From sequence record PZ445487.1: a DNA stretch of 64,000 nt; one strand, written 5' to 3'. Source of the stretch: a phage. Made by a program: the position numbers and the translations under genes. Every line of letters begins with the position of its first letter. Position 1 is the stretch's first letter. The notes under the pieces were generated by a model. That model had not been told where the DNA came from and made no database searches. It saw only the letters and a list, made by a program, of their open reading frames with translations. Positions 36,721 to 64,000 of this stretch are shown piece after piece.

Positions 36721-37008
36721 ATGTCCGGCGTATGGTGTGATGTATTGTTGGTAAGATTTTCAAACGGGATGGATAATCAGATCATTTCATTCTTTTATCC
36801 TGTTCCCTTTTCTTCTATGGGTCTGACTGTCAAGCGCGTTCTTGACATAGAAGAAAAACTCAACACGATGCCGTATATGGCGCGACCACACGTGCTGGGT
36901 TGTGAACTGTTAAACGAAATGATGATTGACGAGAATCTTGTTGAAACAATTATCACGCGTGAACAGATGAAAACCATACTGTCTCAGGGAGAACCCCATG
37001 TCGAATAA
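36721..37008 (+). CDS. Hypothetical protein (95 aa)
   Basis: ATG immediately after the preceding stop. Confidence 0.4.
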   Translation: MSGVWCDVLLVRFSNGMDNQIISFFYPVPFSSMGLTVKRVLDIEEKLNTMPYMARPHVLGCELLNEMMIDENLVETIITREQMKTILSQGEPHVE

Positions 37009-37318
37009 ACCGTTTGAACTTAAATTTCGCGTTTGGCATATTCCCCAGGTTCCTGGGATCGCTTTTCATGTTGAGGTTCCAACATTTGAAGAAGCGCAGC
37101 GCCTGAAGAATACTCTGGCTGATTATGATTTGTTCCAGTTCAACAACAATATCAAGCCGGATTATTGTAATGCTTCGGGCATTCAGATTTATCAACATGA
37201 TCTGACTGAAGAAGATCTAAATGATATGGGACTGGATGATCGTTGGGTTGATATCGAAGATATTGACGAACTCAACGATTATTTTGATCATCTGCGTAGC
37301 ACAGGGTGGGAAATATGA
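36998..37318 (+). CDS. Hypothetical acidic protein (106 aa)
   Basis: ORF overlapping neighbouring gene ends; Asp/Glu-rich C-terminus. Confidence 0.45.
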   Translation: MSNKPFELKFRVWHIPQVPGIAFHVEVPTFEEAQRLKNTLADYDLFQFNNNIKPDYCNASGIQIYQHDLTEEDLNDMGLDDRWVDIEDIDELNDYFDHLRSTGWEI

Positions 37319-46539: not shown

Positions 46540-46824
46540 ATGTCAGAAGAGAAAGATGAAATTCAGATTGCTTGTGATATCGCTGTCGAGTTATGGAATC
46601 AGCGAAACAAACATTATCAGGTGACGTTGACCCCAAAGCGTTATCTAGAGCAAGGTGGCTTAATAGTCGTTGATGCCGTGTTAGGTTTCAACAAATATAC
46701 TGACATGCAAATCTTGGACGGGGATTTCACTATTGCTTCCAATACAGCTTGGGATGATCCTATGGAATTTGTCTACGGTTGGTTGGAATGCATCGAGGAA
46801 TCATACCATCTGATCTACGAATAA
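46540..46824 (+). CDS. Hypothetical protein (94 aa)
   Basis: ORF followed by a hairpin terminator. Confidence 0.45.
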   Translation: MSEEKDEIQIACDIAVELWNQRNKHYQVTLTPKRYLEQGGLIVVDAVLGFNKYTDMQILDGDFTIASNTAWDDPMEFVYGWLECIEESYHLIYE

Positions 46825-46830
46825 GGTGAA

Positions 46831-46862
46831 GGGCACTAAATATCAAGTGCCCTTTATCTTTT
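46831..46862 (+). terminator. Terminator hairpin with CTAAATA in its loop
   Basis: gggcact-aaatatca-agtgccc followed by tttatctttt; the loop carries the late-promoter-like ctaaata. Confidence 0.5.
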
Positions 46863-46920
46863 AACCCTGTCAGGAGGCTCAATCGAGCTGCAAGTCGACA
46901 AACACATAAGGAACGCCATC

Positions 46921-47538
46921 ATGACGATGACAACGTTGAAGGCCATGGCCTTGTCCGTGACCTTTACCATTGCCAGCGGGAGTGTGCACGCTTCCCAAAG
47001 TACCACCCAATGTGATTACGAATTTTCTGATCAACAACTTTCAACCATGGCCACAGCCTATCACATAGGCAAACAACAAGACCTTGGTTTCACCCTCGCC
47101 GCGATATCATGGAGGGAAAGCCGCGCCGGAGAAGATGTTGTATCCATGCGGAATAACCTGAAATCGGCTAACATGGGGGCATTTCAAAATCGCGTCCAAA
47201 CCGTCGGGAAACGGGAGGGATGCAAAACACAGAAGTGTTACGCCAATGTCGCGATCAAATTACTGGTCAATCAAGAATATGCTGCCAATGCTGCCCTTGA
47301 TGAAATGAATTTCTGGCTAGAATATCACAACCAAAACATTCGCAAATCCCTTTCCTCTTACAATGCTGGGTTCAATCGTAACCAGAAATCCAATTCTTAT
47401 GCAGCCGACGTCGTGAAGAAGGCTAAATATCTTCAACGATGTGTGTCTTTCAAAAGCATGGCAATAAACCCAAAGGTCGACCCAGGAGTGATCGCCATGA
47501 ATAAGCGCACGATTGAGAAACTCAAGAGGACCAGATAA
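46921..47538 (+). CDS. Secreted lytic transglycosylase-like protein
   Basis: Signal peptide MTMTTLKAMALSVTFTIASGSVHA; AISWRESR (candidate catalytic Glu-Ser) and SYNAGFNR (YNxG motif) as in SLT-domain enzymes. Confidence 0.45.
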   Translation: MTMTTLKAMALSVTFTIASGSVHASQSTTQCDYEFSDQQLSTMATAYHIGKQQDLGFTLAAISWRESRAGEDVVSMRNNLKSANMGAFQNRVQTVGKREGCKTQKCYANVAIKLLVNQEYAANAALDEMNFWLEYHNQNIRKSLSSYNAGFNRNQKSNSYAADVVKKAKYLQRCVSFKSMAINPKVDPGVIAMNKRTIEKLKRTR

Positions 47539-48176
47539 TGAATATCACTCCATCTCAGACCGGATATGAACACATAATGGTGTTTCTGGCTATTCAGGGC
47601 GCGAAGGAAGGGATCATTACTTCAGAATATTCCGGTACAATGCGCCTTGCGGATTATGTCGCGCCGGAAGCATTCATCAAGAAATGCATCGACGCTTGGT
47701 GCCTTTATGCACTCGGCACGTATCCATCCCCTCCTGCTGGTGAGTTATTGTTTACCATACCGACTCCGGCAACTGGTGACACAGACGCGATATTCGCCGA
47801 TATGCTGTCAAAGGGTTATCTGACATATGACAGTGCTCACAGCGTGTATGATTTTTCTGCGCTGAATCGTATCTTCGGATTCACCATAACTTCTGAAGCG
47901 AATATTCCTGATTATGGAATACTAGCATGGGGCGTCGACGGTTTGGGGGCAACATATGCATCTTCGGATGTCGGTCCTGTGTTGATAGACCCAGGGGTGA
48001 CGATGGAGCAATACATGTCACAATTCCCTCAGCATAATGTTACCGGAAGCGACATCATTATTGTCTATCCTGGTTCTAATGCGCTACCCCGTTTGGTCAC
48101 GGGTTGGCAGTCACAGTTGAAGGACATTGTCTCTGGAATCAGGTTCCATATTCCTGTTGTCAATCCAACACCTTAA
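47538..48176 (+). CDS. Hypothetical protein (212 aa)
   Basis: ATG overlaps the preceding stop; no motif. Confidence 0.45.
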   Translation: MNITPSQTGYEHIMVFLAIQGAKEGIITSEYSGTMRLADYVAPEAFIKKCIDAWCLYALGTYPSPPAGELLFTIPTPATGDTDAIFADMLSKGYLTYDSAHSVYDFSALNRIFGFTITSEANIPDYGILAWGVDGLGATYASSDVGPVLIDPGVTMEQYMSQFPQHNVTGSDIIIVYPGSNALPRLVTGWQSQLKDIVSGIRFHIPVVNPTP

Positions 48177-48189
48177 AATATTCAATAAA

Positions 48190-48232
48190 AGGGGCAAAAG
48201 CCCCTTTACTTCTTCAATAACCCACGTATAAT
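48190..48232 (+). promoter_or_regulatory. Hairpin overlapping a sigma70-type early promoter (PeSL-like cassette)
   Basis: Hairpin aggggc-aaaa-gcccct; -35 ctttac, 17-nt spacer, -10 tataat; conserved leader ataagcag...aggaactacattATG follows. Confidence 0.5.
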
Positions 48233-48280
48233 TCTAAACATAAGCAGTACGACACCAACTTGAAAAGCAGGAACTACATT

Positions 48281-54963: not shown

Positions 54964-55758
54964 ATGGCCATTCTAAAACTTGGCAACCGAGGTTCTGAAG
55001 TCAAAGCACTTCAACAAAGCCTCAACAAAATCGGTTTCTCTCTTACAGCCGATGGCATATTTGGTAAGGCAACAGAGAATGCCGTCAAATCCGTTCAGGC
55101 AGGTGCTGGATTGGTTATTGATGGTATTGCTGGGCCAAAGACCTTCTATGCTATCCGCAACGCTGGAGACGCTCACCAGGAACATCTGACCGAAGCGGAC
55201 TTGGTTGACGCAGCACGTGAACTTGGTGTTGAGCTGGCCAGTATGAAAGCGGTGAACCAGGTAGAATCCCGTGGTACGGGTTTTACCAAAACTGGCAAGA
55301 TCAAAACTCTGTTTGAGCGCCACATCATGTACAAAAAGGTGACGGCCAAATTCGGGCAAGCAAGAGCCAATGCTCTGTACCAACTCTACCCAACATTGGT
55401 TAACCCCAATTCTGGCGGGTATATCGGCGGAGACGCGGAGTTGGAACGCCTTCAGGGTGCAATCGCCCTTGACGAGGACTGCGCTTACGAGAGTGCTTCC
55501 TACGGCCTATTCCAGATCATGGGGTTCAACTGCCAAATCTGTGGCTATTCAAATGCCAAAGAGATGTTCACTGATTTCCTGACTGGTGAACGCGCTCATC
55601 TTCTGGCATTTGTCAAGTTCATCAAGGCTGATGCCAATATGTGGAAAGCCCTGAAGAACAAGAATTGGGCCGAGTTTGCTCGTCGGTACAATGGTCCGGC
55701 ATATGCGAAAAACCAGTATGATACTAAACTGGCGGCAGCATACAAGAGTTTCTGTTAA
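54964..55758 (+). CDS. Endolysin: peptidoglycan-binding domain plus N-acetylmuramidase-like domain
   Basis: N-terminal PG_binding_1-type repeat (LKLGNRGSEVKALQQSLNKIGF...DGIFGKATENAVKSVQ...IDGIAGPKTF); C-terminal FARRYNGPAYAKNQYDTKLAAAY typical of phage muramidases. SD gcggagg. Confidence 0.8.
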   Translation: MAILKLGNRGSEVKALQQSLNKIGFSLTADGIFGKATENAVKSVQAGAGLVIDGIAGPKTFYAIRNAGDAHQEHLTEADLVDAARELGVELASMKAVNQVESRGTGFTKTGKIKTLFERHIMYKKVTAKFGQARANALYQLYPTLVNPNSGGYIGGDAELERLQGAIALDEDCAYESASYGLFQIMGFNCQICGYSNAKEMFTDFLTGERAHLLAFVKFIKADANMWKALKNKNWAEFARRYNGPAYAKNQYDTKLAAAYKSFC

Positions 55759-61617: not shown

Positions 61618-61998
61618 TCAATTTGTCCGTTTCAACCATATGGTGTCTGTTATCGGCTCTGGGTTGTTGACCACATAGAACGTGATGGTTACGCCCAGAG
61701 AATGATAATCGTCCGACAATGATACATCAACAGATTGCAATTCAGCTCTTGGCTCAAAAAGAGCAATGGCATCTTCAACTTTGTTCTTCACGTCGACCTG
61801 TATCGTGGGATTTGTATTTTCTCCCAGCATGGTATACAACCCCGCCCCAATACTCGGATACGTCGGCCAATCACCTACCGTCGCCATCACTATATTACGC
61901 ACAGATTGTAGTACAGCATAAATGCCTGTTTTCTTAGTGACATCTTTGGTGACCGGATGCATGCCAAACTTCAGGTCAATGTCCTTGTACTCTTTCAT
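61618..61998 (-). CDS. 25: Baseplate wedge protein gp25-like
   Basis: Minus strand; MKEYKDIDLKFG...VRNIVMATVGDWP...LFEPRAEL...VTITFYVVNNPEPI parallels T4 gp25; SD aagggg before the chosen ATG. Confidence 0.7.
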   Translation of the reverse strand: MKEYKDIDLKFGMHPVTKDVTKKTGIYAVLQSVRNIVMATVGDWPTYPSIGAGLYTMLGENTNPTIQVDVKNKVEDAIALFEPRAELQSVDVSLSDDYHSLGVTITFYVVNNPEPITDTIWLKRTN

Positions 61999-62062: not shown

Positions 62063-63688
62063 TCATGCGCCTTTACCACCAAAATTGCCGCCGTTATCCT
62101 CTAACTCCGGTTTTATATCAATTGGACCTGGGCCTGTAGTTGTTACAGGAGTTGCCCCCGCACGTGAGGCGGCGCGGCCAGCGCCTTCAGCATATTTGAT
62201 GTTGCCTTCAATAGTCTGTGCAACCGATAATTTATCACAAATTATTTCAGTTGCCAGTATCTTAGGAACCTTCAAAGTGTTAGACACTTCAAACATTTCA
62301 CAGATGAGACGCAACACGTTCTGTGCCTGTATCTCAGCCAATTGGGAAAATTTCATCAACGCTGTTCCAGCGACCACATTGGAATAGTTAGAAGAGTGTA
62401 AGTGGTAAACTTCTCCTTTCTTGCGCTGTACTTCAGTCCCACCAATTGTCAGGTTATGATCACCCCCCACATAATAACGTTTGTCGAACATCGTCAGGTC
62501 ATAATGATCTTTGACTGATTTATTAACAACATCACCGTCAGGAAGCATTTGCTTGTAAGACCCAGAAGAGTGCATCCAATGCAAACGTTCCCCGCCTGGA
62601 GTGTCATCGACCTCCATAATATGCCCAGCTCGAGAAGCCATAACATTGTTGTATGGATAACGAGACCCTCCAGCCGAAGGAACCGATACCTCTCCTGTGT
62701 TGTCAATATCCTGAACACGACCAGAAGGAGGCGGTGTTTCTTGGACTTTCGGGGTACGATCTGGAATAGGTTCAGACCATTTACCGTTTTGTTGTGCCGG
62801 AGCTGCTGAAGCTGTAGTTGCTGGACCTGGCCAACGATAACCCAACACGGATGAGCGGCTAAAACGGCTCACCTTCACAGAATCGGATTGGTTTCCCCCG
62901 ATACACCAAACGTAGTTGGCGTCAAATTTCTGAACGAATGCAACGTGACCGAATGTCGGGTTGTTCCCGCGCCGGAACACTACAACAGCGCCGTAACGTG
63001 GTTCTGACAGAGGAGACCCCCATTGTAAATATGAACGAGCCAAAGCAGAACGTGTTGATGTATATCCGGCCTGTATCAGAACCCATCCGACAAACGACGC
63101 ACACCAACTAACTTCATCTTCTGACGCCCCCAGGGAAGTTGTCTTATGATATTCCAATATCCTTGGGTTGTTATTGAACTTACCAGAATATTCTTTGACA
63201 CCCAATTCCCCACGAGCCACGGTCATCCACTTCTCAGGATCATATCCGTCTACTGGTGGTTGTGGATCCGGTTGCGGTTCATCCTCAATCTTAACAGGAA
63301 CATTCTCGACGGCATTATACTTCTGCCTTTCTATAGATTGAACGACCTGACCCAGCGCCAATGGGTTTGTATCTGACCCATCTGTTGGTGTTGCTGCTGG
63401 CCATACCCATGCAATACGGATGTTCTGATATGCTTCATCCAAAGCAAACCCCATGACGTCAGAGCCGACAGTGATACCCGTCGGAGACCAGCCTAAACCT
63501 GCCGAGGAGGCGTTAGATGCTGGCATAAGCATTTTACCCCAAGGCAATAATTCTGTAGGCAGGAGAGTGGTATCCTCCGTGTGTACCCCATAGATGCGTA
63601 CTGCGACGCGCCCGTTTTGATCGGGATCATTCACGTCTTCAACGCGCCCGTAAAACCAACGCAAGTTGTCTAACATATTGAAACCCAT
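62063..63688 (-). CDS. 5: Baseplate hub/tail-associated cell-puncturing protein gp5-like, with CHAP-type domain
   Basis: Minus strand; N-terminus LRWFYGRVEDVNDPDQNGRVAVRIYGVHTEDTTLLPTELLPWG parallels T4 gp5; central SWCASFVGWV and GHVAFV give Cys/His of a CHAP fold; C-terminal VGGDHNLTIGGTEV beta-helix-like repeat. Confidence 0.8.
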   Translation of the reverse strand: MGFNMLDNLRWFYGRVEDVNDPDQNGRVAVRIYGVHTEDTTLLPTELLPWGKMLMPASNASSAGLGWSPTGITVGSDVMGFALDEAYQNIRIAWVWPAATPTDGSDTNPLALGQVVQSIERQKYNAVENVPVKIEDEPQPDPQPPVDGYDPEKWMTVARGELGVKEYSGKFNNNPRILEYHKTTSLGASEDEVSWCASFVGWVLIQAGYTSTRSALARSYLQWGSPLSEPRYGAVVVFRRGNNPTFGHVAFVQKFDANYVWCIGGNQSDSVKVSRFSRSSVLGYRWPGPATTASAAPAQQNGKWSEPIPDRTPKVQETPPPSGRVQDIDNTGEVSVPSAGGSRYPYNNVMASRAGHIMEVDDTPGGERLHWMHSSGSYKQMLPDGDVVNKSVKDHYDLTMFDKRYYVGGDHNLTIGGTEVQRKKGEVYHLHSSNYSNVVAGTALMKFSQLAEIQAQNVLRLICEMFEVSNTLKVPKILATEIICDKLSVAQTIEGNIKYAEGAGRAASRAGATPVTTTGPGPIDIKPELEDNGGNFGGKGA

Positions 63689-63709
63689 TAGTCAATTAGA
63701 ATCATGTGA

Positions 63710-63717
63710 TATTTATG
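63710..63717 (-). promoter_or_regulatory. Late-promoter-like CATAAATA upstream of gene 5
   Basis: Minus-strand cataaata (7 of 8 match to TATAAATA) about 22 nt upstream of the gp5 ATG. Confidence 0.3.
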
Positions 63718-64000
63718 GCGGGGATTTGAAATCTGTCGAATAATATATTATAGGAAGCTCTGCTTCCGTTCAACCTTTATTCTTTTCGTTCCTACTCGCT
63801 GAAGCTCGTAACACCGCCTTGACAGGCAGTCCCATTCCAATGCCATGGAGGCATAAAGGCGAGGAAAATACTGTACACCTCAGAACATGCGTAGAAAAGG
63901 ATTATTTTTGCTTCAAAACAAATTCAAACCCCAATTACACAACACTTACTTCAGCAACAACGGTGTTATAGCAATTTAAGGTTAAACGTTCCTGTCTTAA

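What the first reader, a model, noticed from the sequence alone, without database searches (positions are those of the whole stretch)
62063..63688. gp5-like baseplate protein carries a CHAP-type domain where T4 has a lysozyme domain
The N-terminal OB-fold region and C-terminal beta-helix-like repeats are gp5-like, but the central domain has the Cys/His signature of CHAP amidases/peptidases (SWCASFVGWV ... GHVAFV). That would mean a different peptidoglycan bond is cut during tail penetration.
Basis: partly seen in the sequence, partly recalled or inferred. Interest (0 to 1): 0.45.

Follow-up and report, generated by a model that had tools for sequence, protein, structure and literature searches.

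The report
Phage tail spike carrying cysteine peptidase

Summary
The gene lies on the minus strand at 62063-63688 and encodes 541 aa (537 aa from the likelier second ATG). [quoted passage not shown]

- **Domains:** profile searches find Gp5_OB (aa 39-98), CHAP PF05257 (aa 191-266, above Pfam's threshold) and NCBIfam TIGR02594 (aa 154-286, E 9e-39). No lysozyme family matches.
- **T4 gp5 similarity:** T4 gp5 aligns only with the flanks, aa 4-87 and aa 343-462.
- **Catalytic residues:** C196, H248 and N266 (in a GGNQ motif) are invariant across the family.

The enzyme most likely cuts the peptide part of peptidoglycan. The exact bond is unknown.

Kutter et al. 2011 (Virol J 8:430) already state that this gp5 homologue lacks the usual lysozyme and carries a putative CHAP/TIGR02594 domain at aa 150-282. 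The finding is therefore already known. No biochemical test of it was found in the library searched. Interest is low.

The parts
62063..63688 (-). Whole ORF of the gp5 homologue (541 aa from the first ATG; the stop codon is 62063-62065). It equals CBA120 orf092 / CBA120_gp070 / YP_004957773.1.
   Evidence: 100% identity to JN593240 / NC_016570 46614-48239. [quoted passage not shown]
63674..63676 (-). Second in-frame ATG, the likelier true start (gives 537 aa).
   Evidence: RefSeq starts here. Most homologues begin MLDN... (A1). Codon checked.
63395..63661 (-). N-terminal OB-fold domain (aa 10-98), gp5/VgrG type. By analogy with T4 it docks the spike to the hub.
   Evidence: Pfam Gp5_OB E 6e-10. 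Aligns with T4 gp5 residues 6-91. AF2 strands at aa 10-96, pLDDT about 85.
63242..63394 (-). Linker 1 (aa 99-149), Pro/Asp/Glu-rich at its end (EDEPQPDPQPPVDGY).
   Evidence: pLDDT <50 for aa 100-145. Sequence.
62825..63241 (-). Central TIGR02594 / CHAP-type papain-like cysteine peptidase domain (aa 150-288).
63101..63103 (-). Codon of Cys196, the predicted catalytic nucleophile (SWCASF), at the N-terminus of a helix.
   Evidence: Invariant in A1 and A4. A helix starts at this residue in the model. Codon checked.
62945..62947 (-). Codon of His248, the predicted general base (GHVAFV), at the start of a beta-strand.
   Evidence: Invariant in A1, A3 and A4. Codon checked.
62891..62893 (-). Codon of Asn266 in the invariant GGNQ motif, the predicted third residue of the triad.
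   Evidence: G264-G265-N266-Q267 are invariant. N266 aligns with the last position of the CHAP profile. Its role is inferred, because model coordinates could not be inspected.
62669..62824 (-). Linker 2 (aa 289-340), rich in Pro/Ala/Thr/Ser. It occupies the position of the T4 gp5 linker that is cleaved during assembly.
   Evidence: pLDDT <50 over most of aa 289-340. 66% P/S/T/A/G/Q. Cleavage here is not known for CBA120.
62303..62668 (-). C-terminal region homologous to the proximal T4 gp5 beta-helix (aa 341-462, equivalent to T4 residues 384-505).
   Evidence: phmmer against T4 gp5. Family profile against 1pdl/1k28, E 2e-21, positions 8-127. Weak VgrG1 hits at E 0.09.
62066..62302 (-). C-terminal 79 aa (463-541) with no detectable relative outside the family. 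It contains a conserved block (TLKVPKIL...GNIKYAEGAG), a low-complexity tail and a conserved DNGGNF motif.
   Evidence: No PDB or Pfam match. pLDDT <50 for aa 485-541. Period-5 hydropathy signal z = 3.8. Conservation in A1/A5.
61618..61998 (-). Downstream neighbour: gp25-like baseplate wedge subunit (orf093).
   Evidence: Pfam GPW_gp25 E 1.3e-8. Annotation.

Best explanation
The gene encodes the central spike / hub protein of the contractile tail of phage CBA120, a homologue of T4 gp5. Shown here: it has a gp5-type N-terminal OB domain, a gp5-type C-terminal region, and between them a TIGR02594 (CHAP / NlpC-P60 superfamily) papain-like cysteine peptidase domain. That domain has an invariant Cys196-His248-Asn266 set and is flanked by two flexible linkers. 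It sits at the topological position of the T4 lysozyme domain. Inferred: three copies form a trimeric spike at the tip of the tail tube. On sheath contraction the spike pierces the outer membrane and the three enzyme domains reach the periplasm. There they cut amide bonds in the peptide stems or cross-links of peptidoglycan, opening a local hole for the tube. The bond is most likely gamma-D-Glu-mDAP (DL-endopeptidase) or mDAP-D-Ala. T4 instead cuts the MurNAc-GlcNAc glycosidic bond. Lysis at the end of infection uses a separate, unrelated enzyme, orf102 (PG_binding_1 + N-acetylmuramidase).
Against: No enzymatic activity has been measured for this protein or, as far as the library searched shows, for any TIGR02594 domain. 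The role of N266 rests on conservation and secondary-structure position only. Trimer formation, release of the enzyme domain and the form of the spike tip were not modelled. Bond specificity is ambiguous. The best fold matches are DL-endopeptidases. [quoted passage not shown] CHAP domains can also be MurNAc-L-Ala amidases.
Confidence: 0.85

Rival explanations
1. The central domain is an N-acetylmuramoyl-L-alanine amidase, as some CHAP domains are. It would strip whole peptide stems from the glycan rather than cut within the peptide.
For: The Pfam hit is to CHAP. CHAP-containing structures that matched include proteins named as amidases, such as 5t1q.
Confidence: 0.1
2. The domain is active but its physiological substrate is not the peptidoglycan peptide. 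Candidates are another periplasmic amide bond, such as the Lpp-mDAP linkage or a glutathionylspermidine-like amide.
Against: Those matches are much weaker than the matches to cell-wall endopeptidases. The same domain is fused to PG_binding_1, LysM and SLT modules in relatives. It also occupies the place of a peptidoglycan lysozyme in gp5.
Confidence: 0.03
3. The domain is a non-catalytic structural or binding module that only anchors the spike to the cell wall.
For: Pseudo-enzyme versions of this domain exist. P0039 has Ala in place of the catalytic Cys.
Against: Cys, His and GGNQ are strictly invariant in all gp5-type family members examined. That is the pattern expected of an active enzyme.
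Confidence: 0.02

Closest known systems
Bacteriophage T4 gp5 (tail-associated lysozyme, central spike; PDB 1K28, 1PDL)
   Same: Homologous N-terminal OB domain (aa 4-87 to T4 3-91) and homologous proximal beta-helix region (aa 343-462 to T4 386-505). An enzyme domain is inserted between them with flexible linkers. The gene sits in a baseplate context.
   Different: The central domain is a Cys/His peptidase (TIGR02594/CHAP), not a T4-lysozyme-fold muramidase. The region homologous to the beta-helix is shorter. The last ~80 aa are unrelated to T4. The enzyme is not a paralogue of the phage's own endolysin.
gp5 orthologues of ViI-like phages (Ackermannviridae: Vi01, Det7, PhaxI, Klebsiella 0507-KN2-1, Dickeya LIMEstone-type, Serratia 3M, Erwinia phiEa2809)
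   Same: Same protein and same architecture at 60-99% identity, with the same invariant catalytic residues. Described for CBA120 itself in Kutter et al. 2011.
   Different: Nothing essential differs. Some genera carry about 70 extra C-terminal residues.
Hub 'cleaver' CHAP domain of Staphylococcus phage 812 / phage K ORF56, and the diffocin hub-hydrolase CD1368 (NlpC/P60 + lytic transglycosylase)
   Different: In those systems the enzyme is attached to the gp27-like hub protein, not inserted in the gp5-like spike. Their targets are Gram-positive walls. Their triads differ (Cys-His-Glu and Cys-His-His).
T6SS amidase effectors (Tae1/Tse1, Tae3, and TIGR02594-domain effectors next to VgrG in Stenotrophomonas)
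   Same: Same superfamily fold, delivered into a Gram-negative periplasm by a contractile spike. Tae3 is the best PDB sequence-profile hit, E 4.6e-4.
   Different: They are separate cargo proteins with immunity partners and are used for killing. Here the domain is covalently part of a viral spike and is used for entry.

Membership tests
T4 gp5-like central spike proteins | N-terminal gp5/VgrG-type OB-fold domain | tested here: met
   Pfam Gp5_OB 39.9 bits against cut-off 25. Aligns with T4 gp5 residues 6-91.
T4 gp5-like central spike proteins | C-terminal triple-stranded beta-helix | tested here: inconclusive
   aa 343-462 are homologous to T4 residues 386-505, E 2e-21. No Pfam Gp5_C repeat hit. 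No period-8 signal. aa 463-541 are unassigned. The trimer was not modelled.
T4 gp5-like central spike proteins | Central T4-lysozyme-fold muramidase domain | tested here: not met
   No lysozyme family at E<=1. Fold searches return only papain-like peptidases.
T4 gp5-like central spike proteins | Structural component of the virion baseplate, encoded among baseplate genes | tested here: met
   Flanked by gp26-like (PF12322) and gp25-like (PF04965) genes. Virion presence of the ViI orthologue is taken from Kutter et al. 2011, who cite Pickard et al. 2010; it was not tested here.
CHAP domain (Pfam PF05257, MEROPS C51) | Profile score above the curated threshold | tested here: met
   40.7 bits against 26, aa 191-266 covering profile positions 4-81 of 81.
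CHAP domain (Pfam PF05257, MEROPS C51) | Invariant Cys and His plus a third polar residue, with Cys at the N-terminus of a helix and His on a strand | tested here: met
   C196, H248 and N266 are invariant. Secondary-structure positions come from the AF2 model. The 3D distances of the triad could not be measured.
CHAP domain (Pfam PF05257, MEROPS C51) | Amidase or peptidase activity on peptidoglycan | not testable with these tools
   This needs a sacculus digestion assay.
TIGR02594 family (NCBIfam) | Full-length match above the curated cut-off | tested here: met
   132.9 bits against 70.55, profile positions 2-132 of 132.
NlpC/P60 (Pfam PF00877, MEROPS C40) | Sequence-profile match to PF00877 | tested here: not met
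   PF00877 is not reported at E<=1.
NlpC/P60 (Pfam PF00877, MEROPS C40) | NlpC/P60 papain-like fold | tested here: met

The most novel reading that the evidence does not exclude
The TIGR02594 domain may have a bond specificity not yet documented for phage entry into Gram-negative hosts, for example DD-endopeptidase cleavage of mDAP-D-Ala cross-links like Tae3. Swapping it for the lysozyme may make these phages insensitive to Spackle-type inhibitors that block gp5 lysozyme in superinfection exclusion. Separately, the unassigned C-terminal 80 residues may form a spike tip of a new kind that replaces the distal T4 beta-helix and its PAAR-like cap.
Probability: 0.15. Interest if true: 0.4.

Novelty: already known. 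Interest (0 to 1): 0.15.

Why it matters
The case shows that the gp5 spike is a modular carrier. The same OB-and-beta-helix scaffold holds a lysozyme in T4 and a cysteine peptidase in the ViI-like phages. In metagenomic relatives it holds M15-type peptidase, SLT or double enzyme modules.

It would be a useful experimental system. A 2017 review states that only one virion-associated lysin of a Gram-negative-infecting phage (phi6 P5) had been shown to be an endopeptidase (PMC5380687).

The domain is also a potential enzybiotic module. The prediction itself has been in the literature since 2011.

Tried and rejected
- **T4-type repeats:** I looked for T4-type octapeptide beta-helix repeats. There is no Pfam Gp5_C hit and no period-8 hydropathy signal.
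- **C-terminal 80 aa:** I tried to assign them with a family profile against the PDB and Pfam. Nothing matched.
- **Solved structure or biochemistry:** literature searches for a Kuttervirus baseplate structure, or for biochemistry of this protein or of any TIGR02594 domain, found nothing beyond annotation-level statements.
- **Upstream gap:** I checked it for tRNA and Rfam families and for a T4-like late-promoter word. There were no RNA hits, and the single CATAAATA is within chance expectation.
- **ICP1 ORF207:** I considered it a second 'gp5::CHAP' case outside the family and rejected it. It has PG_binding_1 + CHAP without an OB domain.
- **Triad geometry:** I could not measure it because model coordinates are not exposed.
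- **gp27-like hub and PAAR-like tip:** I did not locate genes for either. None is annotated in the part of the genome inspected.

Full report
**What is there.** The coordinates 62063-63688 delimit one ORF on the minus strand, 541 aa from the first ATG. The DNA is 100% identical to Escherichia phage CBA120 (JN593240 / NC_016570, positions 46614-48239). CBA120 is a Kuttervirus of the Ackermannviridae, the 'ViI-like' phages. [quoted passage not shown] RefSeq starts it four codons later, giving 537 aa. Most homologues also begin at that MLDN, so the second ATG (63674-63676) is the likelier start. Upstream lies a gp26-like baseplate hub gene (Pfam T4_baseplate, E 1e-51). Immediately downstream lies a gp25-like wedge gene (61618-61998, GPW_gp25).

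**Check of the observation.**
- Pfam finds CHAP (PF05257) at aa 191-266 (E 3.3e-10, 40.7 bits, cut-off 26). It finds Gp5_OB (PF06714) at aa 39-98 (E 6.2e-10).
- NCBIfam finds TIGR02594 over aa 154-286 (E 8.6e-39, well above cut-off), covering the whole profile.
- No lysozyme family is reported. T4 gp5 structures in the PDB align only with the two flanks, aa 4-87 and aa 341-436 (E about 1e-30).
- A profile of the C-terminal part of the family extends that homology to aa 343-462, equivalent to T4 residues 386-505 (E 2e-21). It gives faint hits to VgrG1.

The OB domain, the Cys/His domain and the gp5-like C-terminal region are therefore all real.

**Limits of the beta-helix claim.** Only the proximal part of the T4 helix has a detectable counterpart. 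Pfam's Gp5_C repeat model does not hit. Residues 405-505 show no period-8 hydropathy signal. Residues 463-541 have no match in PDB or Pfam and are modelled with low confidence in a monomer. That segment is nevertheless conserved in the family, including a terminal DNGGNF motif.

**The central domain.**
- Across gp5-type homologues down to 34% identity, W195-C196, H248-V249 and G264-G265-N266-Q267-S268 are invariant. In a wider set of TIGR02594 domains from unrelated architectures, down to about 30% identity, Trp195, His248-Val249 and G264-G265-N266-Q267 are again invariant. Cys196 is invariant in the 19-sequence set. In the 28-sequence set it is replaced only in P0039 (Cys to Ala).
- An AlphaFold2 model of aa 140-300 is confident (mean pLDDT 88, pTM 0.84). 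It has the papain-like layout: Cys196 at the N-terminus of a helix, His248 at the start of a strand, and Asn266 at the end of the next strand.
- Classical CHAP domains score lower: LysGH15 10.3, Ly7917 10.0, phage 812 hub 'cleaver' 6.2-7.7, Gsp amidase 7.7. The T6SS amidases Tae3 and Tse1 score 9.2 and 8.5. Foldseek gives the same picture.
- By sequence profile, the best PDB relative is Tae3 (E 4.6e-4), followed by NlpC/P60 enzymes.

The accurate label is a TIGR02594-type member of the CHAP / NlpC-P60 papain-like superfamily. 'CHAP' is correct at the Pfam level, but the fold is nearer to C40 endopeptidases.

**Mechanism.**
- *Shown:* the domain architecture, the conservation of a catalytic Cys/His/Asn set, the fold, the baseplate gene context, and two low-complexity linkers (aa 99-149 and aa 289-340) that tether the enzyme between the OB domain and the beta-helix.
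- *From the literature:* the ViI orthologue, 98% identical here (P0001), was found in virions by proteomics (Kutter et al. 2011 citing Pickard et al. 2010).
- *Inferred by analogy with T4 gp5:* a trimer forms the tip of the tail tube. Contraction drives it through the outer membrane. The three peptidase domains then cut peptidoglycan locally.

Because the fold is that of cysteine peptidases acting on stem peptides, the bond cut is almost certainly an amide bond of the peptide moiety rather than the glycosidic bond cut by T4 gp5. Which amide bond cannot be decided:
- The best fold matches are gamma-D-Glu-mDAP DL-endopeptidases.
- Tae3-family enzymes and MepS cut mDAP-D-Ala cross-links (PMC3695027; names of the PDB entries).
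- Some CHAP domains are MurNAc-L-Ala amidases.

CBA120 has a separate endolysin for lysis, orf102 (window 54964-55758, PG_binding_1 + Muramidase PF11860). Unlike T4, its entry and exit enzymes are therefore unrelated.

**Distribution.**
- The whole gene is found in 226 phage records, from Salmonella, Klebsiella, Escherichia and Serratia phages among others.
- The domain alone is found by tblastn in 573 phage records, including Dickeya, Erwinia, Vibrio, Pseudomonas, Rhizobium and Caulobacter phages.
- OB-plus-CHAP fusions exist outside the Ackermannviridae. Agrobacterium phage OLIVR5 gp187 has OB + CHAP in 304 aa with no beta-helix. A metagenomic protein, P0025, has OB + SLT + CHAP + gp5 C-terminal trimerisation domain.
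- Other gp5-OB proteins in the large protein database carry still other modules, including PF00959 lysozyme, PF13539, PF08291, PF18013 and PF01464. Exchange of the enzymatic cassette in gp5 is a general theme.
- TIGR02594 domains are also annotated as VgrG-associated T6SS effectors.

**Comparison with what is known, and novelty.** The CBA120 genome paper has a section headed 'Baseplate Lysozyme'. [quoted passage not shown] It places a putative CHAP domain of the TIGR02594 family / NlpC_P60 superfamily at aa 150-282, flanked by regions shared with T4 gp5. Its discussion says the embedded enzyme is very different from the one in T4 gp5 (Kutter et al. 2011, Virol J 8:430, PMC3184105).

This analysis adds a few things:
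- the invariant Cys/His/Asn set;
- a confident fold model showing closer similarity to NlpC/P60 endopeptidases than to classical CHAP domains;
- the extent of the beta-helix homology (to aa 462) and the unassigned C-terminal 80 residues;
- the wider distribution of OB-peptidase fusions.

I found no solved structure and no enzymatic characterisation of this protein or of any TIGR02594 domain in the library searched. The function remains a well-founded prediction.

**Verdict.** Interest is low (0.15). Residual value lies in the untested bond specificity and the uncharacterised C-terminal end of the spike.

Noticed in passing
P0039 (metagenomic protein, 336 aa; not in the window): A TIR-domain protein (PF13676) with one predicted transmembrane helix and a C-terminal TIGR02594 domain. 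The catalytic Cys is replaced by Ala (DWASAF), while His and GGNQS are kept. It may be a membrane TIR protein that uses a pseudo-peptidase as a cell-wall sensor.
   Followed up: no
L003 2252-2968 (Vibrio phage ICP1 ORF207): [quoted passage not shown] It lies among RNR and PhoH genes. This is an endolysin-like architecture, and the name appears to have been propagated from the ViI gp5 central domain.
   Followed up: partly
L004 2072-2986 (Agrobacterium phage OLIVR5 gp187); P0025, P0027: Short Gp5_OB + CHAP proteins without a beta-helix (304 and 333 aa), and a 644-aa protein with Gp5_OB + SLT + CHAP + Gp5_trimer_C. These are other arrangements of the same enzyme on a gp5 scaffold.
   Followed up: partly
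window 54964-55758 (+): The CBA120 endolysin orf102 is PG_binding_1 + N-acetylmuramidase (PF11860), unrelated to the tail enzyme. The 2011 genome paper said no lysin had yet been identified.
   Followed up: partly
window 62066-62302 (-), aa 463-541: The conserved C-terminal segment has no detectable relatives. It shows a period-5 hydropathy signal (z = 3.8) in aa 455-505 and a conserved terminal DNGGNF motif. Five of the more divergent homologues in A1 (about 60-68% identical, among them Serratia phage 3M and Erwinia phage phiEa2809) carry about 70 extra residues after the motif.
   Followed up: partly
window 63689-64000 (continues beyond the window; L001 8495-9000): About 500 bp without an annotated gene lie between the gp26-like gene and the gp5 gene. 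There is no tRNA or Rfam hit. A single CATAAATA (63710-63717, minus strand; one mismatch from the T4 late-promoter word) sits 22 nt upstream of the first ATG, within chance expectation.
   Followed up: partly
window 36998-37318 (+): orf127 is annotated 'superinfection exclusion' (106 aa), next to a lipoprotein gene. Whether it acts on incoming spike enzymes, as T4 Spackle does on gp5 lysozyme, is unknown.
   Followed up: no
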